Origin: Candidatus Woesearchaeota archaeon
GTDB taxonomy: Archaea > Nanobdellota > Nanobdellia > Woesearchaeales > 21-14-0-10-32-9
Length of the DNA stretch: 64,000 nucleotides
NCBI GenBank assembly: GCA_021736975.1
Contig: JAIPET010000003.1
Span: 1,452 to 65,451, forward strand
Direction: 5' to 3'
Under the pieces are notes generated by a model. That model worked only from the letters and a program-made list of their open reading frames with translations, did not search any database and was not told the origin of the DNA. Every line of letters begins with the position of its first letter. Within the stretch, counting starts at the first letter, position 1. A program made the translations under genes and the position numbers. Below are positions 24,601 through 60,670 of the stretch, one piece after another.

Positions 24601-27600
24601 TAACAATTATTTAGATGGAAATCCAGTTACCTGGAATTTTGTAAATCAAGGAGTAGGAGATAGTACTCCGGAATGGCTAATAGCAGGAGGAATATTATCG
24701 GAAAGTGGAAATTGTCATGATGACTCAACAGATTTAGGAAGAGATACAACAGCAAAAGGATGCTATGCATACCCTGGAAATTATGAATGGACAGATATGA
24801 ATATCACAGCAAGAATAAGAGCGAGTGATGACGATGGGATGGGATTGATGTTTAGATATGTTGATCAAAATAATTACTACAGATATAGATTTTCAGGAAC
24901 AAGAGATTTTAGAAAATTAGATAAATTTGTCGGAGGTGTATGGTCAGAATTAGATGTGGACTATTTAGTGGATGGCGGATTCACACAAAATAATTGGCAT
25001 ATTATGACAATAACAATAATAGGCGATCAAATAGAAGGATATTTGAATGGTGTAAAAGTATTAAATGCAACAGATTCAAGCATAACAAATGGAAGTGTTG
25101 CATTATATTCCTGGGGTATGGACACTGGAAGTGTTGGAGGAGACTTTGATTACATAAATGTAACAGATTTAACACAAGGATATTCTTCAACAACATTTTA
25201 TTCAGAATTCATAAACACAACCAACACAAAAACATTAATATCAAATATAACTTGGAATGAAAATAATACTGATCAAAATAATAACATAACCATACAATTA
25301 ACAACAGATCAACAAAATTGGTGTCAAGCAACAAATAACCAAGGAATAAATACGGGAACTTGTTCAAATTTCACATTAAATAATAGTTTACAATACAAAG
25401 TATTATTTCAAAAAAATAATTCAGGAATAATAGGCTTAAATGATATAAATATAAGTTGGCAAGAAGATACAGAAAACCCTACAGTAGAAATAATAAACCC
25501 AATACAAAATCAAATATTAACAAACAATTACACAATAAATATTTCAATAAATGACAGTCAAAGTGGAATAAATACTGCAGAATATATAATAAAATATCAA
25601 AATCAAACAATAGCACAAAACTGGTCGCCTTTAATTTTAAATCAAGGAACAATAAATCAAGGATACTGGAGTTCAAATATAACAACAATAAACTTCCAAG
25701 AAGATACATATATTTTAATAATAAATGCAACAGATTTTGTTGGAAGATATAATGATTCAAAAAATATAAGTTTTTTTGTAGATAATATAGGACCCTCATT
25801 GACATTATTACAACCAACAGATAATCAAACTATAGAATTAGAGTCAATTTTAACAATAGCAGTAAACATAACAGATAATTTACAAATAAGTACAAACGCA
25901 ACAATAGAATATCCAAATACAACAACAACTCAAATTAATCTAATAAATACAATTGGAAATACATATGAAGCAAATTTTACGATGCCTATAATTCAAGGAA
26001 GATACAATATAACAATAAATACAAACAATTCAAACGGAAGAACAAATCAAACAACAACGTATATTCAAGGTAAAGATCTGCAAAATCCACAAGTAACTAT
26101 AATAAATCCTGCACCTTTAACAACAATAGAACAATTAACAAATATAGATATAAACGTAACAATAAATGATCAAACAAATACAACGGTGCAAGCAAATATA
26201 ACTCAACCAAACTTGCACGATGATCAAATAAGTTTAACTCAAATAAATAGTACACATTATTCAATAGAATATACTAATACTTCACAAATTGGGATATATA
26301 ATATAACAATAATTGCAACAGATGAAAATAATAATCAGAATGTAACTGAAACAATTTCTTTTCAAATTCAAGATTTAACAAAACCAACAGCATTTAATTT
26401 ATTAAGTCCGACAAATGCAACAATAAATACAACTATACAACCAATGCTTCAATGGGAACAAACTACTGAAGCTAACTTTAAAAATTATACAATAAATATA
26501 TATGAAGATCAAGCAAGAACAATTCTTAATGCAACATATTATACAACAACTATAACGAATACCTCGATAACAATTGATGCTCTTAATTCTGATGCTACAT
26601 ATTATTGGGATGTAACAGCACACGATTTGTATGGGAATAATAGAACTTCAAATCAAATATATAGCTATACAACAGATAATACTAATCCACAAATAAACTT
26701 ACAATCCCCAAATAACACAATAATAAGAATAAACACAACAACAATAAATTATACACCAATAGATACAAATCTAAAAAATTGTACATTATACTTAAATGAT
26801 ACAGGTGTTTTTGCACCAAATCAAACAACATTAAATCCAATAAATAATCAAATTAATCAATTCAATATAACCTTACAAGACAATTCATATGATTGGAATA
26901 TAAACTGTTATGATCAAGCAAATCAAAATAATTTTGCAATACAAAACAATACATTCACAATAAATACAAAACCAACAAAAATAAATTTGATGTCTCCACA
27001 AAATAACTCAATAGATTCGGATGGTATTATAACAATACAATACAATTTGTCCCACATAGAAAATGTAACAAATTGCACATTAAATTTTCAAGAAACACAA
27101 TACCAAATAACATCAATAAATCAAAATTTAACAAATAATTATCAATTAAATAATGTTGAAGCAGGACAATATAATTATAACTTAACTTGCGAAGACTTAT
27201 CAGGATATATTAACACTTCACAATCAAAAATAATAAATGTAATAAGAACAGAATCATTTTCAGGAAATACATCAAATATGAGTCAAGAATCACCAGAAAA
27301 CTTAATTAATTTAATATTAGAAAAACCAAATAAAGGAAAAATAAATTTTACAGAAACAATTAATTTATCTGGAGGCGCAAATCTAAATCAATTAGTAGCA
27401 ATAAATCAAAATTTCATATCAGTAGATACAATAACAGAACCAAGATTAAACAAATCTGCATCATTAACATTTTATAATTTATCATATCAATTCACACCAA
27501 GAATCCTAATAAATAATCAAATTTGCTCAGAATGTCAAATAATAAATTATGCTAGTAACACATTAATAATGAATGTAACTCATTTTACAAATTATTCAAC

Positions 27601-30600
27601 AGAAGCAAATACGCAATTAATAATCTGGGATCAAGATGATGATGTAGCAGGAAATAATCATGTATCCATAGGCGATCAAGTACAATTTTATGCAAACTAC
27701 ACAAATAAAACATCAGGATCATCAATTTTTGGGGCAGGAGCATATTGTGAAATAATATTTGATGATACAAATTTAATAAATATGACTTATAATGCAACAA
27801 CAAAAATATATGAATATAATAGAACATTTGATGCACAAAGTATAGAAACCTGGAATGTGAGTTGTATTGCAAGCGCACAAAATTATGAATCTTTAAATTC
27901 AACAGATAATGTAGAAATAAGAGGACCTGCACCAATAATAGAAAATGCATTTTTTAATGAAACAACTGCAAGAGCAGATGATTATATATTAGTAAATGCA
28001 ACAATAACAGATTCATCTGGAAATGATACAGTCACAAGTGTAATTTATTCTATGCAATATCCAAACGGAACTAAACAAAATTACTCAATGACTCAATCAA
28101 TAGACTATGATAAAACACATAGTTCAACAAATATATTATCAGAAGAAAGTTCATCAACGCCTCAATCAGATAGAAGAACAATAGGAGAAACAGGAGAAAT
28201 AAATTTAACAAGTATGACCTGGCAATTAGTAGAATTAACTAATACATATAATAATACACCAGTAATTGTTGCAATACCAACAACCCAAAATGCACCGGCT
28301 AGTTTTGATGATTCTTATATGATACCAACAATAAGCATGGTTAATGAAACTCATTTTAATATAACTACTTGTTTAGATAATGGGACATCAACATGCACTC
28401 CTAGCGATGTAGAAGAAACAATACATTATTTTGCATTTGATCCACAAGCATCAAACCAATTTTCATGGATAGATGTAGGAACTGTAAGTACAACAACAGG
28501 AGGAGCAGATACAACAGTGACTTTTGGAAAAACATTTTCAAATACTCCTGATATTTTCACAACAGCCCAAACATATAATCAAAATGGAAATATTGCAGCA
28601 ATAGCATGGGCAGAAGATACAGCAACAAAAACAACAAGTAGCGCACTAATAATTGGATGTGTACATCAAGGAACAAGCGATGCATGTGCAACAGGACAAC
28701 CAGATGAAACCATGGGTTATATAGCAATAGATTCTGCAAATATTAATATCACTTCTTGGCAAACAGGGTCTGCATCAATAAGTGCAAGTACTTGGACCGC
28801 GGCTGCATTTTCACCAACATATGCTGCGCCAAGAGTAATGGTAACACAAAATGATGATAATGGTGCTCAAGATCCAGAATATGCGTGGGCAAGAAGTTTA
28901 ACAGGAAGCGGAATGCAATATAGATATTGTGAAGCAGACGGAGCAGATTACTGTGATTCCCACACAGGAGAAGTAGTAAACTGGTTTGCATTAGAACAAG
29001 GAAATATAACTGCAAGAGGAGCATCAACAGATACAGAAGCAAACAAATCATATGAATATTATTACGATGTAGACAATAAAAACGTAGTAAACATAACAAA
29101 TATGAATATAACAATAGAAATAAGTGCATATAGTAATTTAGGCTCAATCAGCAAATCAAACAATGATCCAGATTTAATCATAGAAATTGCTTCAACAGAT
29201 AATTCAAGCTGGTCAGAAATAGGAACTTTAGGAGTATCAGGAATTGGAAATTACACATTAAATATAACAAATCAAAGCATATTAACAGCATGGATAACTC
29301 AAACAAATAGAGATATACGAATAAAACCAATAAATTTAGATTTTTACGATGATACAAATCAAGACTACATAAATTGGTCAGGAATATATTTACAAATGAC
29401 ATATGATGCAGAATCTTCAAATTGGTACCATATATTTACAGATACATATCAATTAAATGAATATAATCTAACAGACATATATGTATCTGATGAAGACTTA
29501 TTCACCAATCATAAATTATTTAATGATATAAGCTTCTCAATTTATACAACTGTTTTAGATTCATTTAATTTAACAAATCCAACAAATAATACTTTAAGTG
29601 CAGACAGACAACCAGTACTAAATTGGGAACAAACTTCAGCATATAAATTTAAAAATTACACAATTCAAATAGACAACAATTCAGATTTTTCAAGTCCTGA
29701 ACAAATAATAATAAAAACCGTACTAACAGAAAATACATCAACAACATCAAATTTACCAGCAGATCAAACAAGTTACTGGAGAGTTATTGCATACAATGAA
29801 TATAATAATGCAACATATTCAAATCAAATATTTAGATATGAAACAGATAATACGAATCCAATAATAAATTTAACAACACCTTCACAAAATCAAATATTTT
29901 ACACAAATACAATAATATTTAATTATACGCCTAATGATTTACATCTTAAAAATTGTACTTTATACACTGATGTGAATGGAACTTGGTTTGCAAATGAAAC
30001 AAATACAACTCCAATAAATAACCAACCAAATTATTTTAATAAAACAATAAATGATGGATATTATACTTGGAATGTGGAATGTTATGATGAAGTAAATCAA
30101 AAATCATTTTCAGAAAATAATAATTCATTCATTATAGATACTATTCCACCAACAATAAACTTAGAAACTCCGCAGAACAACACATTAAATGAAACAACAA
30201 ACAACATATTATTTGAATATAATGTCACAGATATATTAACATCAATACAAAATTGTGAAATGATATTAGATGAAGATATAAAAGACACAGATATATCAAT
30301 AACAGAAAATACAACTCAAAATTTTACAATTTTTGTAGCAAATGGAAATCACAATTGGAGCATAAATTGTACTGATGATAATGGACAAGTAGGTTCATCA
30401 GATATTTACAATATATCTGTAAATGTAGCATCAGAATCAGATCCTCCAATAATAGTATTGAATGAACCCTTAGAAAACACTTATTCACAATTAAATAATA
30501 TAACATTTAATTATACACCAAGTGATGCAACAGGAATAGAAAATTGTTCATTAATAATAGATGGAGAAATAAATCAAACAAACACATCTTTAACTAGTGA

Positions 30601-33600
30601 AGAAACATCAACTTTTCAAATAAATGAAATGCCTGATGCACAATATTCTTGGAAAATAGAATGTTATGATAATAATACTCAAGCAAAAGGAAATAGTGTA
30701 ACAAGAATATTAACAATAGATACAATAAATCCAATAATACAATTAAATTTACCAGATAATGATTCATTTTATACAAATTTAAATTTATTTTTTAATTACA
30801 CACCAACAGATACAAATTTAGATTATTGTGAATTATTTCATGATGATACTGGAATATTTGAACTTAAACAAACAAATAATTCTCCTATAAGTGGAATAGA
30901 AAATTTATTTAATCAAACTTTACAAGAAAATACTTATCTTTGGAATATAAGATGTGTTGATTTATCAGGAAGAGCATCTTTCGCAATACAAAATAAAACT
31001 GTTAAATTAGATGCAAATTCACCAAAATACTCAAATATTTCTATTAACCCAGAATCTTCAACAAATTATACAGAAGAACAAATATATGAATTTAACATAA
31101 CTATAAATGAAACATTTTTAGATACATTATACATACAACATAATTTTACAGGAACATTAACCAATTATTCAGTTACAACAAACCAAGGAAATACATATTT
31201 ATACAATTATACAGATATATTTCCAGGTAAGTACATATACAAATGGTTTATGAATGATTCATTAAATAGACAAAATGAAACATCTATCTTTAATTATCAA
31301 ATAAATATTTCAGAACCAAATATGACATTAACATTAAACGGACAACAAAATGACATAACTATAAATGAAACACAAAGTGTGACAATAATTTCAACATTAA
31401 ATGAACCAACAAATAAATATTATGAACTATATCAAAATGGAATATTAATAAATTATGGAACATCTCCACTTTTAAATATAACAACATACAATAATGCAGG
31501 AATTTATCAAATAATAACAAATATAACCGGATCTGAAAATTACACACAAAAATCAATAAACTATACAATAACAGTTAATGATGTAGATTCTCCGATCATT
31601 ACTTTAATTTATCCAGAACATAATTCTACGGTTGGAACCTCAAATATAACATTTCAATACAATGTAACTGATAGTACAAACATAACCAGTTGCGAATTAT
31701 ATGTAGATTCATCATTAAAAGATACAGATACAAACATAACAAAAAACACATTACAAACATTTAACTGGAATGTAGCTGACGGAGATCATGATTATTATAT
31801 AAGATGTTATGATGAATACAGCAATACAGGAACATCATCAACATATGATTTTTCAGTTCAAGACTCAACACAAATAAATATAATAATAAACACCACAAAA
31901 CAAACATATCAAGAAGGAGAAATAATAGAAATAAACAGTTTTACAGGAGACTTATTTGGAAGTCCACTTAATACCAGTTTAGAATTAGACTTAATATATA
32001 CAAATACAACAACCAGTTCAGCATCATGGTGGAATACGACCTGGCAAAAAAGAAAAGCAATAAAATTAAACAATCCTGATAGTTCAGCATCATTAAAAAC
32101 AGTGCATGTTAACATAACTAATTTAACAGGATATTTAACAGATTGTTATAAAGAATTAAGAATAATAAAAAACACTTCAACAGGACCAGAATTAATAGAA
32201 CATGAAATTATATCAGGAGATAATACAACCTTTTGTCAATTAAAATTTAATGCAGATTTATCAGCAAATGCAATAGATGAAATAAATTATCACGTTTATT
32301 ATGATAATAATACGCCTGTAACAGATCCTGGATTTACTGTTACAGATATAACATTTAATATACAAAGAGGAGAAATAACAGGATCAACAACATCTATAAC
32401 AGATACAATGAATCAAGTTAATCAAGCAAACTCATTCATAATATTAAGTTCTAAAGCATCATCAACTGCACCCAATGGAAATCAATTTACACCTAAATTT
32501 GATTCTGATACTCAAATAAGTTTTGACAGATATTCTGCAGTTGCAGGAACAGCAAGTTGGCAAGTAATAGAATCATCAGATTATTTTGTGCAAGCAAATA
32601 CAACAACATTAAGTACATCACAAGTAGCTACAACTGTTAACATATCTTCAATAAATACAGACAAAACAATAATAATACCTTATGCAAGAGCAAATGATGC
32701 AAGCGCATCAAATAATAACAGAGGATATGTATATGCTACAATATTAAATGAAACACAAATTCAATTAAATAGAAGTTCAACAGGTGCTGCTGCAAGCGTA
32801 TATTACCAAGTAATAGAATTCCCAGAAACTTACACAGTTAGATCAGGAACTTTAAGTTTTACAACAACATCAGCAACTGATACAGTTCCACAAGTAAATA
32901 CTAGTAGGAGCATGCTCTTCTTCTCATACGGTATTAATGGAGATACAGGACTAGATGCAAACCACATAAGAGGCAAATTTAATAGCGGAACACAAATAGA
33001 ATTTAACAGAGTAGTAAATCAAGGAACAGCATATGTATCTTGGTATGTTGTAGAATTTCCAGAAAGTTTTGTTACTCAATCAGCATCATCTACGATTACT
33101 GCGGATACAGGAGTTTTATTGACAAATCCAATTGTATTAAACAAAACATTTCATGTTCAATCAAGAGCAAGTTCAGGAGGCGGAACAACATATACGAATG
33201 CAATGGTTAAAACAAATCTGACAAATACAACACACATATACTTAGATAAAGAAACAACGTCAAACATTAACGATATAGATTGGATGTTAATAGAAAAAAC
33301 AACATCCACAACATCAACAAATACATCCATAGGAAATACTGAAGAATTAATACAAAAAAATGTTTCAATAACAGGACTTGACGGATTTGCAGATTTAATT
33401 TATTGGCAAACAATAAATGAATACTTTGGAAATTATTCTGTTGTAGGGCTAGCATCCAGATTTGCATTTACAAATTCAACAAATTATGCAACTTTTGAAT
33501 TAACAAATGATACAACGCCTCCAATAATAACTATAAATTATCCTGGATCAATCGAAAATATAAGTAACAGTTCAACTTTATTTAATTTCACAACATATGA

Positions 33601-36600
33601 TTATCAATTAAATAGTACTTGTAATATTACGATAGATGGAAGTATAAATCAATCAAATATTTTTACTGAAAATAATTTAAATGAATTAGTAACAACAAAT
33701 AATTTTACAGAAGGAATTCATTACTGGAATATAACTTGTTGGGATAAATATAATAATTCAAACACAACTAACACAAGAAATTTTACAACAAAATTAGAAT
33801 CTCCAGATGTACAATTAATAATTCCAACAAATAATCAAATATTAACTCAATCATTAGTATATTTTAATTATACTCCGACAGATACAACATTAAATAATTG
33901 TTCATTATATGGTAATTTTACAGGAGACTTTGAAATAAACCAAACAAATAATATACCTATAAATGGTCTTCAAAATTCATTTAACTTAACATTACAAGAT
34001 AATATATATTTATGGAATATTAAATGTGTAGACAATGTAAGTCAAGAAAGTTATGCAACAACAAATTACACATTTAAATTAGATACAACCGCGCCACAAA
34101 TAAATTTATTAAATCCAACTAATAATACATTAAATACAACAACGAACAATATTTTATTTGAATACTCTACAACAGACACATTATCAGAAATAAGTTATTG
34201 TTCAGTAATTTTAGATGGAGAAATAAAAGATACAGATATAACAATATCAGAAAGTGCAACTCAAAACTTTACAATTTTTGTAGCAAATGGAGAACATAAT
34301 TGGAGTATAAATTGTACCGATTCAAATGGACTAGAAAGTTCATCAAATAAATATAATTTATCAATGAATGTATTATTTGAATCAGATCCTCCAGTAATAG
34401 TATTAAATTATCCTTTAGAATATTATTATACAAACATAACAAACATAACATTCAATTATACTCCAAGTGACGCATCAGATGTAGAAAATTGTTCATTATT
34501 AATAAATGGAGAAATAAACCAAACAAATACATCTCCAATAAATTTAATACCAAATTACTTTGAATTAACAAACATACCAGAAAATAATTATACTTGGCAA
34601 ATACAATGTTACGATAATGAAACATTTGCATTAGGTTACTCTATTCAAAGCGATTTTACAATAGATTTAACAAATCCATATATTAATTTAACATCTCCAA
34701 ATGATTATTCATTTTACACATCTTCAAATGTAGAATTTAATTATACTCCATTAGATACAAATATAGAAAACTGTTCATTATATGGAAATTTTTTAGGCTC
34801 TTTTGAATTACAAAATACAAATACAACACCAATATCAAATCAAACAAATACCTTTACAGAAATAATTAATGACGGTACATATTTATGGAACGTAAAATGT
34901 TATGATAAAGCAAATAGAAATTCATTCTCAGAAAACAACTACACAGTATATGTTGATGCGAATGCACCAAATTTATTAAATTCACAAAACAATCCAACAA
35001 GTCCAGCAGAATATGAATTATTACGAACTTATTATTTTAATATAACTATAGATGAACAATTCAAAGATACTGTGTGGATAGAACATAATTTTTCAGGAAC
35101 AATGCAAAACTATACAGTAACAAATAATATTAGCAACACATTTATGTACAATTATACAGATATAGCAGTAGGAAATTATTATTATAAATGGTATGCAAAT
35201 GATTCATTAGGACGAATAGGAAATACTTCAACAACTAATTATGAAATAACTAAAAAACAAGGAAGTGTAGGTTTATTATTAAATGGATTAGCATCAAACG
35301 TAACTATAAATGAAAGTAATCCTTTAAATGTAACAGGATATACAATAGAACCGAGCCAAGGATATATTATATTATATCAAGATGGAGATATGATAAATAA
35401 TGGGACGGACTATCTTGAAAATATAACTTCATATTCTCAACCAGGATCTTATAATTTAACTGTGTTTTATAATGAAACACAAAATTATACTGCTTCATCA
35501 CAAACATATTTTGTTAATGTTGTAGATGTATCAAATCCAACTGTAACTTTAATATATCCAGCAAATGAATCTTACGTAGGAAGTTTAGATATAAATTTTA
35601 GATATGATGTAACTGATAATGTTGGAATAGACAATTGCAAATTATATGTTGATGATATATTAGAAGATACAGATACAAGTATAGAAAATAATGCAGAAAA
35701 TCAATTTCCTTACACATTTTCAGGAGATGGAAATTATTCGTGGTATGTAACTTGCACAGACACATCATCAAATAGTATGACAACACAAACAAATAATTTT
35801 ACAGTAATAGAAACAACAGAAATGATTGTAAATACATCAATAACTAAACAAATATATCAAAAAGGAGAAATAATAAATGCATTAACAAAAGTAACAGATC
35901 AATTTGAATTGGAATTAGAAAATGCAAATTTAACATTAAATTTAATAATAGGAAATACTACAATTCCTTGGTGGAATGAATCTTGGGGAAGAAGACAAAA
36001 AATACTATTAGAAGAAACAACAGGACAAAATCAAACAAAGGAAACGATAAATATAACTATTGACACACAAACAATCATTTTACAAAATCTATCAGAATCA
36101 AACTGTATAGATTACAGATTTATAGATTCAAATTTAAACGAATTAGAATACAAATTAATCTCAGGTTGTAATACAACTCAAACAACATTTTTTATAAAAA
36201 CAAATTTGACTGCAGGAACAAATAACACAATATATGTGTATTATAATAATTCGCAAGCAACAAATACAAGTAATGAAAATTTGAAAAGTACTATAGGAGA
36301 AACAGGAGCAATAAATATAAATAGTTTTACAGGATCAATAAAAAATTTCAACAATCAATACGCTTATCAACCAATAATACTTGCAACACCAGTAACACAA
36401 AATGGACCCACAAGTACTGATGATTCATATAATATACCAACATTATTTGATACAGGAAATAATTATATGAATATAAGTTTATGTCAAGATAATGGTTTAG
36501 TTACTTGTAGCAATCCTGGAGCAACAGAAACAGTTCATTATTTTGTCTTTGATGTAAATAGAACAAATAAATATTCTTGGATAGAAGTAGGGACTGTTAA

Positions 36601-38761
36601 TGTTACAACTGATGGTATTGATACTGTATTAAACTTTGGAAAAACATTTAGTAACGTTCCAACAGTTTGGACAACAGCACAAACATATAATCAAGGAGGA
36701 AATATTTCATCAATAACATGGGTAGAAGATACAGCAACAAAAACAATAAGTAGTGCCCCTTTAATTGGATGTGTTCATCAAGGAATAGCTAATGTTTGTG
36801 AACCCGGACAACCTGATGAAACAATAGGATATATTGCAATAGACCCTTTAAATGTTAATATATCAAGTTATCAAGAAGGAAATTCAGACATTAGTAATAG
36901 TGAGTGGACTACAGCAGTATTCTCGCCAGTATATACAAATCCTAGAGTTATGGTTACAGAAAATGATGATGACGGCGGAGAAGATCCAGAATATCCTTGG
37001 GCAAAAAACGTAGTAAGTACTGGGATGGATTTTAGATTCTGTGAACAAGATGCTTCAGATGTATGTAATTCTCATACAAGTGAAGTAGTAAATTGGTTTG
37101 CATTAGAAGATGGAGATATACTAGCACCATTATTAGCAACAAATGATGTAACGATATATCAAGAAAACGAAGAAATATTAGTTTTAACAATACAAAATCA
37201 AACAAACCAAACAGGACAATGGAATTGGGATATAGATACATTGCAATTTGAATATTATAATTATTCAATTGTCTCAAAAGCTAGTTATTCAGGATACAAT
37301 GATAATTATGATTATGCTCATTTTGAATTAATACCAGATACAACTGCACCGAACGTAACTTTAATAATTCCAACAATAAATTATATAATATCAAATAATT
37401 CGTTAATATTTAATTGGAGTGCAAATGATTACCAAAGAAACCAAACATGCAATTTAACTATAGATGGAACAAATAATCAAACAAATATATTTCAAAATAA
37501 TGATGAAATAATATCAAGAAATATAAATAATATAATAGAAGGAAAACATAATTGGTCTGTAAACTGCGTAGATGTTTTAGGAAACTACGGTCCTTCAGAA
37601 ACAAGAAATTTCACAATAGATTTAACACCACCAACAATACAAATAATAAATCCAATAATAGAATATAATACTACAAACACTACAATAAATTTTACATTTA
37701 ACGTTACAGATCAATTCGCAGAGCAAACAAATTGTTCAATATATTTTTATGGAATAAATATAACGCAAAATGCAACAATACAAAATGCAACAAATTCAGG
37801 AATAAATGCTAATATTTCATATGGACGTTATGAATGGCTAGTAAAATGTTTTGAACCATCAGGAAATCAAGCAACATCAAATCCAAGAAACATCACTATA
37901 CTAAGCCCTCCAACAGACATATACATAAAAATAAATCAAAATAAAAGTACTACAATAAACTGGACAAATATACCGGAAGCAGAATCATATAATGTGTATA
38001 TAACAAACAATTTCACAGCAGGATTTCCTTTAACACCCAATGTAAGCGGAATAATAACTAATGAATTCACAGATCAAACAGCAAATACAACAATACAAAG
38101 ATACTATAAAATAAGTACTCAAAGAAATACAATAGAAGCTTCATCAAATGAATATGTAGGAAAATATGAATCAGAACTTCAAACAGGATATAATATGATA
38201 AGTTCACCATTAACATACTCGGATTTAGAATTAGAAAATGGAACAAATAATGCATATACTTTTAATCCAAACAATCAATGTATACAATCTTTATGGAAAT
38301 ATGAATCAGGAACTTTCAAAAGATCAGACTGGCTCACAGATAAATTTGTACCTGCATCAGGAAGTGAAGATTTCATATCAATAAATAGTACAGAAGGATA
38401 CTGGATAGAAACAAACCAAACATGTAATATAACATACATAGGAAAAATAAAAGAAATAAATTCAACAATATCTTTAAACACAGGACCAAACTTAGTATCT
38501 TGGTATACAATAAATGAAAAAACACTTCCAACAAATTATCAAACACCAATAATAAATACAAATCCAACTAATTCAGTTCAAGCAATTAATAGATTTAATG
38601 CAATAACACAAGAATTTGAATTGACAATACATTATGTAATAACTGGAACTGCATGGGGTTGGTGGCCATCATTTAATAATCAAGAGTTCCTATCTTTAAA
38701 ACCAACAGAAGGATATTATTTTGATGCAAATCAAACAAATATTTGGGAGCATGAACCATGA
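21659..38761 (+). CDS. Giant multidomain surface/adhesin-like protein, 5700 aa, with N-terminal signal/anchor
   Basis: 17.1-kb open frame. N-terminus MIKRTSKRTLKIIMIMFLTVAIAISTNA is signal-peptide-like. Three DUF2341-like starts: SWWNSNYNSRKQINI near 22069, SWWNTTWQKRKAIKL near 32026, PWWNESWGRRQKILL near 35966. LamG-like region after the first. ConA/DUF1080-like jelly roll about 24570-25170. Two FN3-like units about 26380-26680 and 29565-29850. Many ~95-aa Ig-like Cys-pair modules. Two copies of a ~282-aa Cys-loop beta-sandwich module at 28171-29020 and 36283-37125. Stop TGA at 38759-38761; no C-terminal TM segment. Confidence 0.9.
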   Translation: MIKRTSKRTLKIIMIMFLTVAIAISTNALTTDKTIYELGETVIINTNTTNYTLEIQSSNQKYKLINNEDSIIYFTPTIIGTHTITLNNNELLNFEVIQSTQKQPTSQIKPIKEKSISLTSLIKKEDLPISILSIEDSWWNSNYNSRKQINITNNDVTNTITNKYTANITINTQTLITNNKLQANCDDLRIIWINSTTPTEIDRTITNCNQTNSVVEFKIQKNISASSNSDKYYIYYENPSAINPPNNKSNIYYLWEDFEDQTHPFSNGALSPTVTTGSAKNGVYGLEGNGGGGYRRAVVPENLPRGFTIESWVYSHGDGSNADLPGISYGMQTSELNGYQTILDWRSATAGSADMQIRENYASGSPLATSTANTVSKYQWYYVTTTWKENGDIQATIYNSSMSLWGTMNVNDPTYTTGYYGINAYKSGQWDDVKVKLFMSTQPTYDLLTEEQRNPLTVSLNSPENNSVKDILTFNISCTATTEYELINITLYINSTGTWQANQTKSATGNNSQKNFEITLENLNSYKYNCLAIDNESNQAFANENNTFTVNTFFDFTPEINLSYPQENYTNNTQNIINLTLNASVSDDVNLVNCSLYHNYSGTWNLNQTNTVTGNLNTTSFQLNNIGNKSFIWNIGCYDDANQLNFAENNRTIILDNENPQISINEPTNQIYYINNITINITTNEPLNYCNYTLDNWLTNNLTNQISSTEYQATENNLAEGTYTIKTSCEDIHGNINNTEQTIFTINHKKPNVTLTNPTNNYLNNTNQYVNLTFSATATDGNELMNCSLYHNYSGTWILNQTNLVTGISNTTNFQLNNLTNKIFIWNIECSDKNNEKAFATSNRSIILDINPPGLTINSPNETYQDPSPLIIINITDQAETAWYNINNQNNITICNNCTGIQTTYKNLPEGNYQINIYVNDTNANLNSKSEFFTINQNLNYYETYDDQSSQYVLNDSLIQNGQLQFTGTGGETLLNESFDDNNYLDGNPVTWNFVNQGVGDSTPEWLIAGGILSESGNCHDDSTDLGRDTTAKGCYAYPGNYEWTDMNITARIRASDDDGMGLMFRYVDQNNYYRYRFSGTRDFRKLDKFVGGVWSELDVDYLVDGGFTQNNWHIMTITIIGDQIEGYLNGVKVLNATDSSITNGSVALYSWGMDTGSVGGDFDYINVTDLTQGYSSTTFYSEFINTTNTKTLISNITWNENNTDQNNNITIQLTTDQQNWCQATNNQGINTGTCSNFTLNNSLQYKVLFQKNNSGIIGLNDINISWQEDTENPTVEIINPIQNQILTNNYTINISINDSQSGINTAEYIIKYQNQTIAQNWSPLILNQGTINQGYWSSNITTINFQEDTYILIINATDFVGRYNDSKNISFFVDNIGPSLTLLQPTDNQTIELESILTIAVNITDNLQISTNATIEYPNTTTTQINLINTIGNTYEANFTMPIIQGRYNITINTNNSNGRTNQTTTYIQGKDLQNPQVTIINPAPLTTIEQLTNIDINVTINDQTNTTVQANITQPNLHDDQISLTQINSTHYSIEYTNTSQIGIYNITIIATDENNNQNVTETISFQIQDLTKPTAFNLLSPTNATINTTIQPMLQWEQTTEANFKNYTINIYEDQARTILNATYYTTTITNTSITIDALNSDATYYWDVTAHDLYGNNRTSNQIYSYTTDNTNPQINLQSPNNTIIRINTTTINYTPIDTNLKNCTLYLNDTGVFAPNQTTLNPINNQINQFNITLQDNSYDWNINCYDQANQNNFAIQNNTFTINTKPTKINLMSPQNNSIDSDGIITIQYNLSHIENVTNCTLNFQETQYQITSINQNLTNNYQLNNVEAGQYNYNLTCEDLSGYINTSQSKIINVIRTESFSGNTSNMSQESPENLINLILEKPNKGKINFTETINLSGGANLNQLVAINQNFISVDTITEPRLNKSASLTFYNLSYQFTPRILINNQICSECQIINYASNTLIMNVTHFTNYSTEANTQLIIWDQDDDVAGNNHVSIGDQVQFYANYTNKTSGSSIFGAGAYCEIIFDDTNLINMTYNATTKIYEYNRTFDAQSIETWNVSCIASAQNYESLNSTDNVEIRGPAPIIENAFFNETTARADDYILVNATITDSSGNDTVTSVIYSMQYPNGTKQNYSMTQSIDYDKTHSSTNILSEESSSTPQSDRRTIGETGEINLTSMTWQLVELTNTYNNTPVIVAIPTTQNAPASFDDSYMIPTISMVNETHFNITTCLDNGTSTCTPSDVEETIHYFAFDPQASNQFSWIDVGTVSTTTGGADTTVTFGKTFSNTPDIFTTAQTYNQNGNIAAIAWAEDTATKTTSSALIIGCVHQGTSDACATGQPDETMGYIAIDSANINITSWQTGSASISASTWTAAAFSPTYAAPRVMVTQNDDNGAQDPEYAWARSLTGSGMQYRYCEADGADYCDSHTGEVVNWFALEQGNITARGASTDTEANKSYEYYYDVDNKNVVNITNMNITIEISAYSNLGSISKSNNDPDLIIEIASTDNSSWSEIGTLGVSGIGNYTLNITNQSILTAWITQTNRDIRIKPINLDFYDDTNQDYINWSGIYLQMTYDAESSNWYHIFTDTYQLNEYNLTDIYVSDEDLFTNHKLFNDISFSIYTTVLDSFNLTNPTNNTLSADRQPVLNWEQTSAYKFKNYTIQIDNNSDFSSPEQIIIKTVLTENTSTTSNLPADQTSYWRVIAYNEYNNATYSNQIFRYETDNTNPIINLTTPSQNQIFYTNTIIFNYTPNDLHLKNCTLYTDVNGTWFANETNTTPINNQPNYFNKTINDGYYTWNVECYDEVNQKSFSENNNSFIIDTIPPTINLETPQNNTLNETTNNILFEYNVTDILTSIQNCEMILDEDIKDTDISITENTTQNFTIFVANGNHNWSINCTDDNGQVGSSDIYNISVNVASESDPPIIVLNEPLENTYSQLNNITFNYTPSDATGIENCSLIIDGEINQTNTSLTSEETSTFQINEMPDAQYSWKIECYDNNTQAKGNSVTRILTIDTINPIIQLNLPDNDSFYTNLNLFFNYTPTDTNLDYCELFHDDTGIFELKQTNNSPISGIENLFNQTLQENTYLWNIRCVDLSGRASFAIQNKTVKLDANSPKYSNISINPESSTNYTEEQIYEFNITINETFLDTLYIQHNFTGTLTNYSVTTNQGNTYLYNYTDIFPGKYIYKWFMNDSLNRQNETSIFNYQINISEPNMTLTLNGQQNDITINETQSVTIISTLNEPTNKYYELYQNGILINYGTSPLLNITTYNNAGIYQIITNITGSENYTQKSINYTITVNDVDSPIITLIYPEHNSTVGTSNITFQYNVTDSTNITSCELYVDSSLKDTDTNITKNTLQTFNWNVADGDHDYYIRCYDEYSNTGTSSTYDFSVQDSTQINIIINTTKQTYQEGEIIEINSFTGDLFGSPLNTSLELDLIYTNTTTSSASWWNTTWQKRKAIKLNNPDSSASLKTVHVNITNLTGYLTDCYKELRIIKNTSTGPELIEHEIISGDNTTFCQLKFNADLSANAIDEINYHVYYDNNTPVTDPGFTVTDITFNIQRGEITGSTTSITDTMNQVNQANSFIILSSKASSTAPNGNQFTPKFDSDTQISFDRYSAVAGTASWQVIESSDYFVQANTTTLSTSQVATTVNISSINTDKTIIIPYARANDASASNNNRGYVYATILNETQIQLNRSSTGAAASVYYQVIEFPETYTVRSGTLSFTTTSATDTVPQVNTSRSMLFFSYGINGDTGLDANHIRGKFNSGTQIEFNRVVNQGTAYVSWYVVEFPESFVTQSASSTITADTGVLLTNPIVLNKTFHVQSRASSGGGTTYTNAMVKTNLTNTTHIYLDKETTSNINDIDWMLIEKTTSTTSTNTSIGNTEELIQKNVSITGLDGFADLIYWQTINEYFGNYSVVGLASRFAFTNSTNYATFELTNDTTPPIITINYPGSIENISNSSTLFNFTTYDYQLNSTCNITIDGSINQSNIFTENNLNELVTTNNFTEGIHYWNITCWDKYNNSNTTNTRNFTTKLESPDVQLIIPTNNQILTQSLVYFNYTPTDTTLNNCSLYGNFTGDFEINQTNNIPINGLQNSFNLTLQDNIYLWNIKCVDNVSQESYATTNYTFKLDTTAPQINLLNPTNNTLNTTTNNILFEYSTTDTLSEISYCSVILDGEIKDTDITISESATQNFTIFVANGEHNWSINCTDSNGLESSSNKYNLSMNVLFESDPPVIVLNYPLEYYYTNITNITFNYTPSDASDVENCSLLINGEINQTNTSPINLIPNYFELTNIPENNYTWQIQCYDNETFALGYSIQSDFTIDLTNPYINLTSPNDYSFYTSSNVEFNYTPLDTNIENCSLYGNFLGSFELQNTNTTPISNQTNTFTEIINDGTYLWNVKCYDKANRNSFSENNYTVYVDANAPNLLNSQNNPTSPAEYELLRTYYFNITIDEQFKDTVWIEHNFSGTMQNYTVTNNISNTFMYNYTDIAVGNYYYKWYANDSLGRIGNTSTTNYEITKKQGSVGLLLNGLASNVTINESNPLNVTGYTIEPSQGYIILYQDGDMINNGTDYLENITSYSQPGSYNLTVFYNETQNYTASSQTYFVNVVDVSNPTVTLIYPANESYVGSLDINFRYDVTDNVGIDNCKLYVDDILEDTDTSIENNAENQFPYTFSGDGNYSWYVTCTDTSSNSMTTQTNNFTVIETTEMIVNTSITKQIYQKGEIINALTKVTDQFELELENANLTLNLIIGNTTIPWWNESWGRRQKILLEETTGQNQTKETINITIDTQTIILQNLSESNCIDYRFIDSNLNELEYKLISGCNTTQTTFFIKTNLTAGTNNTIYVYYNNSQATNTSNENLKSTIGETGAININSFTGSIKNFNNQYAYQPIILATPVTQNGPTSTDDSYNIPTLFDTGNNYMNISLCQDNGLVTCSNPGATETVHYFVFDVNRTNKYSWIEVGTVNVTTDGIDTVLNFGKTFSNVPTVWTTAQTYNQGGNISSITWVEDTATKTISSAPLIGCVHQGIANVCEPGQPDETIGYIAIDPLNVNISSYQEGNSDISNSEWTTAVFSPVYTNPRVMVTENDDDGGEDPEYPWAKNVVSTGMDFRFCEQDASDVCNSHTSEVVNWFALEDGDILAPLLATNDVTIYQENEEILVLTIQNQTNQTGQWNWDIDTLQFEYYNYSIVSKASYSGYNDNYDYAHFELIPDTTAPNVTLIIPTINYIISNNSLIFNWSANDYQRNQTCNLTIDGTNNQTNIFQNNDEIISRNINNIIEGKHNWSVNCVDVLGNYGPSETRNFTIDLTPPTIQIINPIIEYNTTNTTINFTFNVTDQFAEQTNCSIYFYGINITQNATIQNATNSGINANISYGRYEWLVKCFEPSGNQATSNPRNITILSPPTDIYIKINQNKSTTINWTNIPEAESYNVYITNNFTAGFPLTPNVSGIITNEFTDQTANTTIQRYYKISTQRNTIEASSNEYVGKYESELQTGYNMISSPLTYSDLELENGTNNAYTFNPNNQCIQSLWKYESGTFKRSDWLTDKFVPASGSEDFISINSTEGYWIETNQTCNITYIGKIKEINSTISLNTGPNLVSWYTINEKTLPTNYQTPIINTNPTNSVQAINRFNAITQEFELTIHYVITGTAWGWWPSFNNQEFLSLKPTEGYYFDANQTNIWEHEP
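29855..32020 (+). repeat. Intragenic segmental duplication copy A (about 2.2 kb, Ig-like module array) in giant ORF2
   Basis: Runs NPIINLTTPSQNQ ... PPTINLETPQNNTLNETTNNILFEYNVTD ... ESDPPIIVLNEPLE ... DANSPKYSNISINPESS ... VDSPIITLIYPEHNS ... up to SWWNTTW. Colinear module by module with copy B. Confidence 0.7.
33800..35965 (+). repeat. Intragenic segmental duplication copy B (about 2.2 kb) in giant ORF2
   Basis: Runs SPDVQLIIPTNNQ ... APQINLLNPTNNTLNTTTNNILFEYSTTD ... ESDPPVIVLNYPLE ... DANAPNLLNSQNNPTSP ... VSNPTVTLIYPANES ... up to PWWNESW. Long identical peptides are shared with copy A, e.g. TQNFTIFVANG(N/E)HNWSINCTD. Confidence 0.7.
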
Positions 38762-42881: not shown

Positions 42882-43283
42882 ATGAAAAAAACAATAATTT
42901 TAATAATGATTTTAATATTGATATTTTTAGCAGGCTGCACATCAACAAAATACATTTGTTATAATGGTCTTGAAACAAAAAATATCAAAGAATGTACTGT
43001 ATATCCAACCATAACACTAAATGAAATAAAAGCATCAAGAGCCGTAGACAATTACGGAAGAGGATATGTCGTAGGAAAAGATATAACTTTTACACGAGTA
43101 AATACGTATGTTCAAGGAGGAGATTGGTATTCAGATGTATTATTCTCAGAAAGAAATACAGGATCTGTTGCGGAAGTAAAACTTAAAATAGATGGAAGAA
43201 CATCATCTATAACTTGCATAGATGGATGCGAAGCAATAGGAATACAAACACCAACAGATAATGAAACTATAAAAAAAGATTGA
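42882..43283 (+). CDS. Small secreted lipoprotein-like protein (133 aa)
   Basis: N-terminus MKKTIILIMILILIFLAGC has a lipobox-like LAGC. The mature part has 3 further Cys. GAGAATAAGG lies upstream of the ATG. Confidence 0.7.
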   Translation: MKKTIILIMILILIFLAGCTSTKYICYNGLETKNIKECTVYPTITLNEIKASRAVDNYGRGYVVGKDITFTRVNTYVQGGDWYSDVLFSERNTGSVAEVKLKIDGRTSSITCIDGCEAIGIQTPTDNETIKKD

Positions 43284-43356
43284 ATTAAGATTATGTGTTT
43301 TTTTATATTATATTTATAAATTACATTTAACAAATTCTGAATAAGATAAATATTAA

Positions 43357-43508
43357 GCCTAATATGAAACCCTCTGATTGTCTTGAAGTAAATTTGAAAT
43401 ATTTACATTTTACGTTAGTAAAATAGATATAAATATTAGTTATTTCTTTTTGGCAGAGTCAAAAATATGTCTTCACAATACAAAAAATTAAATGGTTTCA
43501 TATTAGCC
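43357..43508. mobile_element. MITE-like non-autonomous element, copy 1 (152 bp)
   Basis: Terminal inverted repeats GCCTAATATGAAACC (left) and GGTTTCATATTAGCC (right), 14/15 complementary. Flanked by 9-bp direct repeats AAATATTAA (43348-43356) and AAATATTAC (43509-43517), 8/9 identical. No coding capacity. Roughly 90% identical to 60448-60599. Confidence 0.7.
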
Positions 43509-43523
43509 AAATATTACGTAAAC

Positions 43524-43531
43524 TATATAAA
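43524..43531 (+). promoter_or_regulatory. Candidate archaeal TATA box for a leaderless sec61-beta transcript
   Basis: TATATAAA is centred about 27 nt upstream of the ATG at 43554, with no SD-like motif in between. Inference from the usual TATA-to-start spacing in archaea. Confidence 0.3.
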
Positions 43532-43553
43532 TTAATCATCATTTTCTAATAAT

Positions 43554-43715
43554 ATGTCAAAAGATAACCGAATAAATATGCCGAGCTCTGGAGCAGGACT
43601 AACAAAATACTTTTCTGATTACCAATCAAAAGTATTGATAACTCCACAAACAACATTATTTGCAATAATGTTCGTAGTATTATTAGTATTAATAGTCTCA
43701 GGCAAAATATTCTAA
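43554..43715 (+). CDS. Preprotein translocase Sec61-beta-type subunit (53 aa); not in the supplied ORF track
   Basis: Translation: MSKDNRINMPSSGAGLTKYFSDYQSKVLITPQTTLFAIMFVVLLVLIVSGKIF. It carries the family-typical P-SSGAGL-x-(K/R)-Y(F/Y) motif followed by a single C-terminal TM helix. Confidence 0.7.
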   Translation: MSKDNRINMPSSGAGLTKYFSDYQSKVLITPQTTLFAIMFVVLLVLIVSGKIF

Positions 43716-43732: not shown

Positions 43733-44071
43733 ATGATTCCTGGAATGAACCCAAGACAAATGCAACAAGCAATGAAAAGAATGGGAATTAAACAAATAGA
43801 TTTTGAAGCAATAGAAGTAATAATAAGAACTCCAGAAAAAGAAATAGTAATATCAGATCCATCAATACAAAAAGTAAACATGATGGGAAATTGGTCCTAT
43901 CAAATATCAGGCGAAGAAACAGAAAGATCATTAAATACAACTCCAGAAATCAATGAAGAAGACATAAAAACAGTTATGCAACAAGCAAATTGCACAGAAG
44001 AACAAGCAAAACAAGCAATAGAAGAATCAAAAGGCGATTTAGCAGAAGCAATAATGAAACTTTCTGAATAA
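43733..44071 (+). CDS. nac: Nascent polypeptide-associated complex protein (archaeal NAC, NAC plus UBA-like domains)
   Basis: MIPGMNPRQMQQAMKRMGIKQIDFEAIEVIIRT...IQKVNMMGNWSYQISG... with a C-terminal EEDIKTVMQQANCTEEQAKQAIEESKGDLAEAIMKL (UBA-like). AGGTGA lies 9 nt upstream of the ATG. Confidence 0.9.
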   Translation: MIPGMNPRQMQQAMKRMGIKQIDFEAIEVIIRTPEKEIVISDPSIQKVNMMGNWSYQISGEETERSLNTTPEINEEDIKTVMQQANCTEEQAKQAIEESKGDLAEAIMKLSE

Positions 44072-60292: not shown

Positions 60293-60447
60293 TTATAACC
60301 ACCTTCCAATTATTAATGAATATTAACATTAAAAATAATATTTCTTCTATATATAAACTTTTTGTTTACAAAGTCATTTATTAACAATATGGAAAATAAT
60401 TATTTTTTTACATACTAATCGAATTTTTTTATTTGCTATATAAATAC

Positions 60448-60599
60448 GGCAAATATAAACCAGCTGTATTGTCTTAAAGTAAATTTGAAATATTTACATT
60501 TTACTTTAGTAAAATAGATGTAAATATTGGTTATTTCTTTTTGATAGAGTCAAAAATATATATTCACAATACAAAAAATTAAAGGGTTTCATATTAGCC
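60448..60599. mobile_element. MITE-like non-autonomous element, copy 2 (152 bp)
   Basis: Same length and orientation as copy 1, roughly 90% identical. The right terminus GGTTTCATATTAGCC is intact; the left terminus is degenerate (GGCAAATATAAACC). Flanked by a perfect 9-bp direct repeat TATAAATAC at 60439-60447 and 60600-60608. Confidence 0.75.
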
Positions 60600-60670
60600 T
60601 ATAAATACAAAAACTTTATATAATACATTAAAGCAATAAAAAATAACACAAAAAGAGGTGTACAAAGAAA

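What the first reader, a model, noticed from the sequence alone, without database searches (positions are those of the whole stretch)
43348..43517. 152-bp MITE-like element with terminal inverted repeats and 9-bp target-site-duplication-like flanks (copy 1)
43357-43508 starts GCCTAATATGAAACC and ends GGTTTCATATTAGCC, which are complementary at 14 of 15 positions. It is flanked directly by AAATATTAA and AAATATTAC. It has no ORF. It is roughly 90% identical, with the same length and orientation, to 60448-60599, which lies 17 kb away. Internal conserved hairpins are GTAAAT-N7-ATTTAC (43388-43406) and ATTTTAC-N4-GTAAAAT (43407-43424). The only difference between the two copies in the second hairpin lies in its loop (GTTA versus TTTA). 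TIRs plus 9-bp direct repeats are the hallmark of transposase-mobilised non-autonomous elements. MITEs are little documented in small-genome archaea, and this one would imply a cognate IS element somewhere in the genome or community.
Basis: seen in the sequence. Interest (0 to 1): 0.65.

Follow-up and report, generated by a model that had tools for sequence, protein, structure and literature searches.

The report
Multi-copy MITE in a Woesearchaeota genome
The 152-bp sequence is a real miniature transposable element (MITE) present in roughly 20-40 copies in the genome of an uncultured lake-water Woesearchaeota archaeon, which makes it an ordinary new family of a well-known kind of mobile DNA.

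Summary
43357-43508 has 15-bp terminal inverted repeats (14/15) and 9-bp direct flanks (8/9). A third full copy lies 13 kb beyond the window on the same contig, upstream of the S13 ribosomal-protein operon.

In three lake metagenome runs, summed contig depth over the element is 23-42 times that of its flanks. The extra contigs sit at the host genome's own depth and carry at least 11 different flanking sequences. Allowing for overlap between contigs, that means roughly 20-40 dispersed copies in one genome.

The closest relatives lack the element at all three orthologous sites, although the adjacent promoters are conserved.

Rfam gives no match. No base pair shows compensatory change, and the changes in the terminal repeats break pairing. 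A conserved structured RNA is therefore unlikely.

No transposase-encoding partner was found, but most of the host genome could not be searched. A 2024 census already reports dense MITEs in DPANN genomes, including a Woesearchaea genome. This is a new member of a known kind, of modest interest.

The parts
43348..43356 (.). Left target-site duplication of copy 1 (AAATATTAA)
   Evidence: Read directly. It matches 43509-43517 at 8 of 9 positions. Chance of 8/9 or better among AT-rich 9-mers is 5e-3.
43357..43508 (+). MITE copy 1 (152 bp, about 20% G+C, no ORF)
   Evidence: It is 91% identical to copy 2 and to copy 3 (L056:1686-1838). Logan contigs break inside it.
43357..43371 (+). Left terminal inverted repeat (GCCTAATATGAAACC; family consensus GGCTAATATGAAACC)
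   Evidence: Position 2 is C here and G in copies 2 and 3.
43388..43424 (+). Two adjacent internal hairpins (GTAAAT-N7-ATTTAC and ATTTTAC-N4-GTAAAAT)
   Evidence: The stems are invariant in the three full copies. A subfamily seen in metagenome contigs replaces the second hairpin.
43447..43465 (+). Third internal hairpin (TTTTTG-N7-CAAAAA)
   Evidence: Differences between copies lie only in its loop (43453-43454).
43494..43508 (+). Right terminal inverted repeat (GGTTTCATATTAGCC)
   Evidence: It is identical in copy 2. Similarity among metagenome copies ends at 43504-43508 (loose ends).
43509..43517 (.). Right target-site duplication of copy 1 (AAATATTAC)
43519..43532 (+). Adjacent context, not part of the element: BRE/TATA-like promoter motif (AAACTATATAAAT) of the sec61-beta gene (ATG at 43554)
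   Evidence: A 19-nt stretch beginning with this motif (AAACTATATAAATTAATCA, 43520-43538) is identical in relative L007, which lacks the element. The promoter function is inferred from the archaeal BRE/TATA consensus.
60439..60447 (.). Left target-site duplication of copy 2 (TATAAATAC)
   Evidence: It matches 60600-60608 at 9 of 9 positions. Chance is 5e-4.
60448..60599 (+). MITE copy 2 (152 bp), closer to the family consensus than copy 1
   Evidence: The majority letters in the metagenome at 43429, 43438, 43453 and 43469 are those of copy 2. It is identical in a second MAG, GCA_021735585.1 (L008:7181-7332).
60600..60608 (.). Right target-site duplication of copy 2 (TATAAATAC)

Best explanation
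This is a copy of a non-autonomous DNA transposon (MITE) family in an uncultured Woesearchaeota (DPANN) archaeon.

Proposed mechanism: a DDE-type transposase encoded elsewhere recognises the 15-bp terminal inverted repeats (consensus GGCTAATATGAAACC). It may also recognise the conserved subterminal hairpin and GTAAAT-type motifs. It inserts the 152-bp element into AT-rich intergenic DNA through a 9-bp staggered cut, and repair of that cut leaves 9-bp direct repeats.

The family amplified to roughly 20-40 copies in this lineage after it split from its nearest sampled relatives, and the copies have since diverged by about 8-9%. The copies that survive sit in the very short intergenic spacers, just upstream of the promoter of the next gene, where insertion does not destroy a gene.

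Shown: the inverted repeats, the flank duplications, the multiple copies with unrelated flanks, the absence from relatives, and the absence of coding capacity and of RNA covariation.

Inferred: the type of transposase, mobilisation in trans, and a role for the hairpins as cis-acting transposition signals.
For: 1. Inverted repeats and flank duplications. Copy 1 has 14/15 repeats and 8/9 flanks. Copy 2 has 9/9 flanks of a different sequence. Chance is 5e-3 and 5e-4 respectively.

2. A third full copy at L056:1686-1838, on the same contig and in the opposite orientation. It is 92% identical and its flanks are TAATCAAC and TAACCAAC.

3. Copy number. Summed contig depth over the element against its flank is 261-326 against 9 (X1), 272-330 against 9.6 (X2) and 1443-2580 against 62 (X3). 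The individual contigs are at host depth in all three runs. At least 11 different right-hand junction sequences begin at the end of the inverted repeat.

4. Assemblies break inside the element.

5. Relatives lack it at orthologous sites.
- The spacer upstream of sec61-beta is 25, 44 and 92 nt in the relatives against 270 nt here.
- The copy-2 spacer is 149 against 343 nt.
- Upstream of S13 in L059, homology runs through the 5' leader and TATA box and stops at the element boundary.
- There is no copy in 25.6 kb of relatives' DNA.

6. No ORF and no protein match in any frame.

7. Known analogues. MITEAba12 is 113 bp with 16-bp imperfect repeats, 9-bp duplications and 78% A+T (PMC6382973). The Sulfolobus SM1-SM4 families have 25-44 copies (PMC10969869).
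Against: - No autonomous element with the same termini was found. No contig in the metagenome shows the terminal 35-60 nt joined to unrelated internal sequence.
- No empty-site allele was seen within the same species. The empty sites come from relatives at only 76-86% protein identity, where the spacers have diverged.
- The duplication at copy 3 is imperfect: 7/8, and a 9-bp register needs a 1-nt indel.
- Depth sums can double-count, because neighbouring assembly contigs overlap by about 30 nt. The copy number is therefore uncertain by about a factor of two.
- None of the 15 variable interior columns falls in the 38 nt of hairpin stems (p about 0.004). This hints at a constraint that simple neutral decay does not predict.
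Confidence: 0.88

Rival explanations
1. The family is a MITE that the host has co-opted. In this reading it acts as a promoter-proximal cis-regulatory or insulating module, or as a small structured RNA, and its internal hairpins are kept by host-level selection.
For: All three full copies lie 9-17 nt upstream of a BRE/TATA-like motif and point the same way relative to the downstream gene. None of the 15 variable interior columns hits the three hairpin stems, and the common variants in the metagenome avoid the stems too. The strand folds better than shuffles (z -3.5 to -4.0).
Against: - Three of three in one orientation has p = 0.25.
- Several other right-hand junctions show no TATA-like motif at that distance.
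- The reverse strand folds equally well (z -4.5), as expected of any inverted-repeat DNA.
- There is no compensatory change in 53 predicted pairs.
- A subfamily lacks hairpin 2.
- No RNA run could be listed.
- Conservation of the stems is equally explained by selection for transposition competence in the source copies.
Confidence: 0.1
2. The sequence is a multi-copy structured non-coding RNA gene. The 'inverted repeats' would be its closing helix, and the element would not be mobile.
For: A terminal helix plus three hairpins is predicted with z about -4.
Against: - No Rfam family matches at the gathering score, and only weak chance-level hits appear at E up to 10.
- Changes in the terminal helix break pairs in each copy and are never compensated.
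- The flank duplications have a different sequence at each copy.
- The element is absent from orthologous sites in relatives.
- There is no conserved promoter at a fixed distance upstream of the element.
Confidence: 0.03
3. The copies arose by segmental duplication or gene conversion of an intergenic promoter region, without transposition.
For: Weak similarity continues a few bases past the right end into the BRE/TATA region (TAC..AAAC.TATA).
Against: Similarity ends sharply at the inverted repeat on both sides in every junction seen. There are dozens of copies with unrelated flanks. The 9-bp duplications differ between copies. One copy is inverted.
Confidence: 0.02

Closest known systems
MITEAba12 of Acinetobacter (mobilised by ISAba12)
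   Same: It is a short AT-rich non-coding element (113 bp, 78% A+T) with 16-bp imperfect terminal inverted repeats differing at 1 nt. It makes 9-bp target-site duplications (PMC6382973).
   Different: It is bacterial and has no detectable sequence similarity to the element here. Its parent IS is known and co-resident, whereas no parent was found here. Its copy number is lower (1-22 per genome, PMC10969869).
Sulfolobus solfataricus MITE families SM1-SM4
   Same: These are archaeal non-autonomous elements with inverted termini and flank duplications. They occur in 25-44 copies per genome (PMC10969869, citing Redder et al. 2001).
   Different: They are crenarchaeal and live in large IS-rich genomes with identified partner IS elements. 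The sequences are unrelated, and the duplication lengths follow their own IS partners.
MITEs catalogued in DPANN genomes by the 2024 census (PMC11602168)
   Same: The census reports that DPANN genomes, including 'a Woesearchaea genome' at 105 MITEs/Mb, are among the densest archaeal MITE carriers. The class and the host group are the same.
   Different: That catalogue is an automated MITE-Tracker output, and its sequence files are not held here. I could not test whether this particular family is in it.
IS families that make 9-bp duplications (IS903 group of IS5, IS4/IS10/IS50, IS1, IS256)
   Same: The duplication length is 9 bp. From my own recollection of ISfinder descriptions, IS903-group ends begin with GGC, as here. 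This is a lead, not a test.
   Different: No transposase gene and no full-length IS with these ends was found, so no family assignment can be made.

Membership tests
Prokaryotic MITE | Small size (tens to a few hundred bp) and no coding capacity | tested here: met
   The element is 152 bp with stops in all six frames. A concatenated six-frame protein search found nothing at E up to 10.
Prokaryotic MITE | Terminal inverted repeats | tested here: met
   The repeats are 15 bp and pair at 14/15 in copy 1. The consensus GGCTAATATGAAACC / GGTTTCATATTAGCC is a perfect inverted pair.
Prokaryotic MITE | Target-site duplications of fixed length and varying sequence directly abutting the repeats | tested here: met
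   Copy 1 has 8/9 (AAATATTAA and AAATATTAC). Copy 2 has 9/9 (TATAAATAC). Copy 3 is decayed (TAATCAAC and TAACCAAC, 7/8 with a 1-nt offset). See; chance levels are.
Prokaryotic MITE | Multiple dispersed copies with unrelated flanks in one genome | tested here: met
   There are three full copies on one contig. Depth over the element is 23-42 times the flank, from contigs at host depth in three runs. At least 11 distinct junctions were seen.
Prokaryotic MITE | Presence/absence polymorphism (empty sites) | tested here: inconclusive
   The element is absent at all three orthologous sites in related species. At the S13 site, homology stops at the element boundary. No empty allele was seen within the same species (no such joints).
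Prokaryotic MITE | A cognate autonomous IS with matching ends and duplication length | tested here: inconclusive
   None was found in the window, in L056, in GTDB representatives, in JGI metagenome contigs or in IMG/VR. The rest of the host genome could not be searched with these tools.
Structured non-coding RNA family (Rfam-type) | Match to a curated covariance model, or base pairs kept through compensatory changes | tested here: not met
   There is no match at the gathering score and only weak hits at E of 0.1 or higher. None of 53 pairs shows a compensatory change, and the covariation term is unfavourable.
REP/BIME-type extragenic palindromes (RAYT-mobilised) | Short G+C-rich palindromes without flank duplications, linked to an IS200/IS605-like RAYT gene | tested here: not met
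   The element is 152 bp at about 20% G+C, with inverted termini and 9-bp duplications. No RAYT-like gene appears in the annotated neighbourhood.

The most novel reading that the evidence does not exclude
The family is an 'orphan' MITE that a DPANN archaeon with a tiny genome has put to use. In this reading the copies sit just upstream of promoters in one orientation and their three hairpin stems are kept invariant, so that they act as a shared cis-regulatory or insulating module or as a small RNA. The transposase that moved them may come from outside the genome, for example from a virus, a plasmid or the host organism of this symbiont.
Probability: 0.1. Interest if true: 0.55.

Novelty: new member of a known kind. 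Interest (0 to 1): 0.3.

Why it matters
The finding adds a manually verified MITE family to a DPANN lineage known only from MAGs.

- It explains why short-read assemblies of this organism break every 15-20 kb.
- It shows that even a streamlined genome with 25-90-nt spacers tolerates dozens of 152-bp insertions just upstream of promoters.
- It gives a concrete handle, the 15-bp ends and the 9-bp duplication, for finding the responsible transposase.

It does not change what is known about how MITEs work.

Tried and rejected
- Rfam on the whole window and, permissively, on the element gave nothing usable.
- tRNA and tmRNA scan found none.
- Exact-pattern scans for the right end and for the core found no true copy in GTDB representative genomes, JGI metagenome contigs or IMG/VR. 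The three JGI hits (L001-L003) are a 21-nt chance match inside a coding gene.
- The 15-nt inverted repeat alone in IMG/VR gave 45 single chance hits. The one locus with a possible inverted partner (L035) encodes phage structural proteins.
- I searched the protein database with a concatenated six-frame translation of the element, hoping to catch spurious ORF calls in other copies. Nothing was found.
- No RNA-seq runs could be listed.
- Pfam on the unannotated neighbours of the three copies found no transposase.
- I tried to pair left and right junctions from the loose-end lists to recover more duplications. The lists are too short and partly merged consensus sequences, so no reliable pairs resulted.
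- The supplementary MITE catalogue of PMC11602168 is not held.
- A count of the GTAAAT motif in the window showed it is simply common.

Full report
**Observation**

- 43357-43371 (GCCTAATATGAAACC) and 43494-43508 (GGTTTCATATTAGCC) are complementary at 14 of 15 positions.
- They are abutted by AAATATTAA (43348-43356) and AAATATTAC (43509-43517).
- The two hairpins lie at 43388-43406 and 43407-43424. A third, TTTTTG-N7-CAAAAA, lies at 43447-43465.
- The second copy, 60448-60599, has the same orientation and is 91.3% identical over 149 nt. Its left repeat is more decayed.

Among AT-rich 9-mers 152 nt apart in this window, a 9/9 match occurs at 5e-4 and an 8/9-or-better match at 5e-3. Two such pairs exactly abutting the inverted repeats are not chance.

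**Host and source**

- The neighbouring genes are archaeal housekeeping genes: sec61-beta at 43554-43715, NAC at 43733-44071, and Hjc, a histone and LemA near copy 2.
- NAC and S9 homologues are annotated as Woesearchaeota/Nanoarchaeota.
- The window is positions 43048-107047 of the 121,911-bp contig JAIPHZ010000001.1 of MAG GCA_021734925.1.
- The organism occurs in three lake-water metagenome runs.

**Copy number**

- Logan contigs of these runs stop inside the element. One contig runs exactly from copy 1 to copy 2.
- Laying all contigs on the region at 80% likeness gives summed depth over the element of 261-326 against about 9 (X1), 272-330 against 9.6 (X2) and 1443-2580 against 62 (X3).
- The contributing long contigs each have the host's own depth: 55-64 in X3 and 6-12 in X1 and X2. 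The ratio is the same in samples where the host differs sevenfold in abundance, so the copies belong to the same genome.
- Neighbouring assembly contigs overlap by about 30 nt, so the sums can double-count. I put the number at roughly 20-40.
- At least 11 different right-hand junction sequences start at 43504-43508 (equivalent to 60595-60601). This is where similarity among copies ends.
- The majority letters at 43429, 43438, 43453 and 43469 are those of copy 2.
- A subfamily replaces the second hairpin with other sequence (loose ends).

**A third full copy**

Using ribosomal protein S9 as a handle, I reached the end of the source contig.
- L056:1686-1838 is a complete copy, 92% identical to copy 2.
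- It is inverted relative to the window and lies about 13 kb past the window's end, upstream of the S13-S4-S11-RpoD operon.
- Its flanks are TAATCAAC and TAACCAAC. That is 7/8, and a 9-bp register needs a 1-nt indel, so the duplication is decayed but recognisable.

**Absence from relatives**

- Copy-1 site: the spacer between the upstream lipoprotein-like gene and sec61-beta is 270 nt here. It is 25 nt in L007 (NAC 81% identical), 44 nt in L006 and 92 nt in L005, none of which contains the element. The 19-nt promoter stretch AAACTATATAAATTAATCA just right of copy 1 is identical in L007.
- Copy-2 site: a related organism in run X1 has 149 nt where the window has 343 nt.
- Copy-3 site: in L059 (S9 86% identical), homology with the host runs from the S13 gene through the 5' leader and the TATA box to ...ATAACAAAAC and then stops where the element begins in the host.
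- No copy occurs anywhere in 25.6 kb of these relatives.
- No empty allele within the species was seen.

**Not an RNA gene**

- Rfam gives nothing at gathering thresholds, and only hits at E of 0.1 or worse in a permissive search.
- The element folds better than shuffles on both strands (z -4.0, -3.5 and -4.5), as any inverted-repeat DNA does.
- In the three-copy alignment, none of 53 predicted pairs shows a compensatory change. Each copy carries a change that breaks the terminal helix. That is what decaying inverted repeats look like, not a maintained stem.

One thing is not explained by neutral decay. None of the 15 variable interior columns falls in the 38 nt of the three hairpin stems (p about 0.004). 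Many variants are shared between copies and so arose in source elements. The simplest reading is therefore that the hairpins are cis-acting signals needed for transposition. Host-level function is the alternative.

**Position**

All three full copies end 9-17 nt upstream of a BRE/TATA-like motif (AAACTATATAAAT, AAAACTTTATATAA, AAAAGATTTATAAAA). They point the same way relative to the downstream gene.

In a genome whose relatives have 25-90-nt spacers, the only place an insertion can survive is between the stop codon of one gene and the promoter of the next. That explains the position. Orientation at three of three is not significant (p = 0.25). Several other junctions lack a TATA-like motif at that distance.

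**Partner element**

- No transposase is annotated or detectable in the window, in the 15 kb beyond it, or among the unannotated neighbours.
- Pattern scans of GTDB representatives, JGI contigs and IMG/VR found only chance matches.
- No metagenome contig joins the terminal 35-60 nt to foreign internal sequence.
- The other 100-odd contigs of the MAG could not be searched with the tools at hand, so the question stays open.

**Mechanism and comparison**

The anatomy is that of a MITE moved in trans by a DDE transposase that makes 9-bp staggered cuts.
- The closest described analogue in form is MITEAba12: 113 bp, 16-bp imperfect repeats, 9-bp duplications, 78% A+T, moved by ISAba12 (PMC6382973).
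- The closest in host domain and copy number are the Sulfolobus SM1-SM4 families, at 25-44 copies (PMC10969869).
- A census of 8220 archaeal genomes already names DPANN genomes, including a Woesearchaea genome at 105 MITEs/Mb, as the densest archaeal carriers (PMC11602168).
- From my own knowledge of ISfinder, 9-bp duplications point to the IS903 group of IS5, or to IS4, IS1 or IS256. This is a lead only.

**Verdict**

It is a new family of a known kind in a group where such elements have already been counted. Interest is modest at 0.3. The one thread worth pulling is whether the invariant hairpins and the promoter-proximal placement reflect use by the host.

Noticed in passing
window 45-20435 and 21659-38761 (+), continuing to 42860: Two giant ORFs of 6796 and 5700 aa are followed by ORFs of 530 and 835 aa. 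They are built from many diverged repeats carrying conserved Trp/Cys motifs (families D1-D20). Together they fill two thirds of the window and look like giant surface or adhesin-type proteins of a DPANN cell.
   Followed up: no
L056:1433-1556 (same contig, about 13.3 kb past the window end, next to MITE copy 3): A G+C-rich island of about 125 nt sits in very AT-rich DNA. It folds into a long closed multi-branch structure (-53 kcal/mol, z -6.6). It has no Rfam match at E up to 1 and no tRNA call. It is a candidate unrecognised structured RNA gene.
   Followed up: partly
L056:1-190 (end of contig JAIPHZ010000001.1): At least three identical tandem units of 60 nt (…AACTTCATCATTGGCAAACAACGATTCAGAACTTTCAAAACAAGTTTGAAAAT…) run into the contig end. 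This is either a real tandem repeat or the reason the assembly stops there.
   Followed up: no
window 43519-43553; L007:879-916: The sec61-beta promoter region is almost unchanged in a relative at 81% NAC identity, and its TATA-like box is centred about 26 nt before the ATG, which suggests a leaderless mRNA. In the relative, the stop codon of the upstream gene lies inside this TATA box.
   Followed up: partly
window 43357-43508 and 60448-60599; L056:1686-1838: The three full copies on this contig are spaced 17,091 and about 16,600 bp apart. All lie just upstream of a BRE/TATA-like motif, in the same orientation relative to the downstream gene. The spacing is probably coincidence and was not tested on the remaining copies.
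   Followed up: partly
window 43284-43347: Relatives have no counterpart for the 64 nt of very AT-rich DNA between the stop codon of the upstream gene (43283) and the left flank repeat of copy 1 (43348-43356). The gene end (GAAACTATAAAAA, 43260-43272) resembles the promoter motif at 43519-43531. This could be the trace of an earlier insertion or duplication at this site.
   Followed up: no
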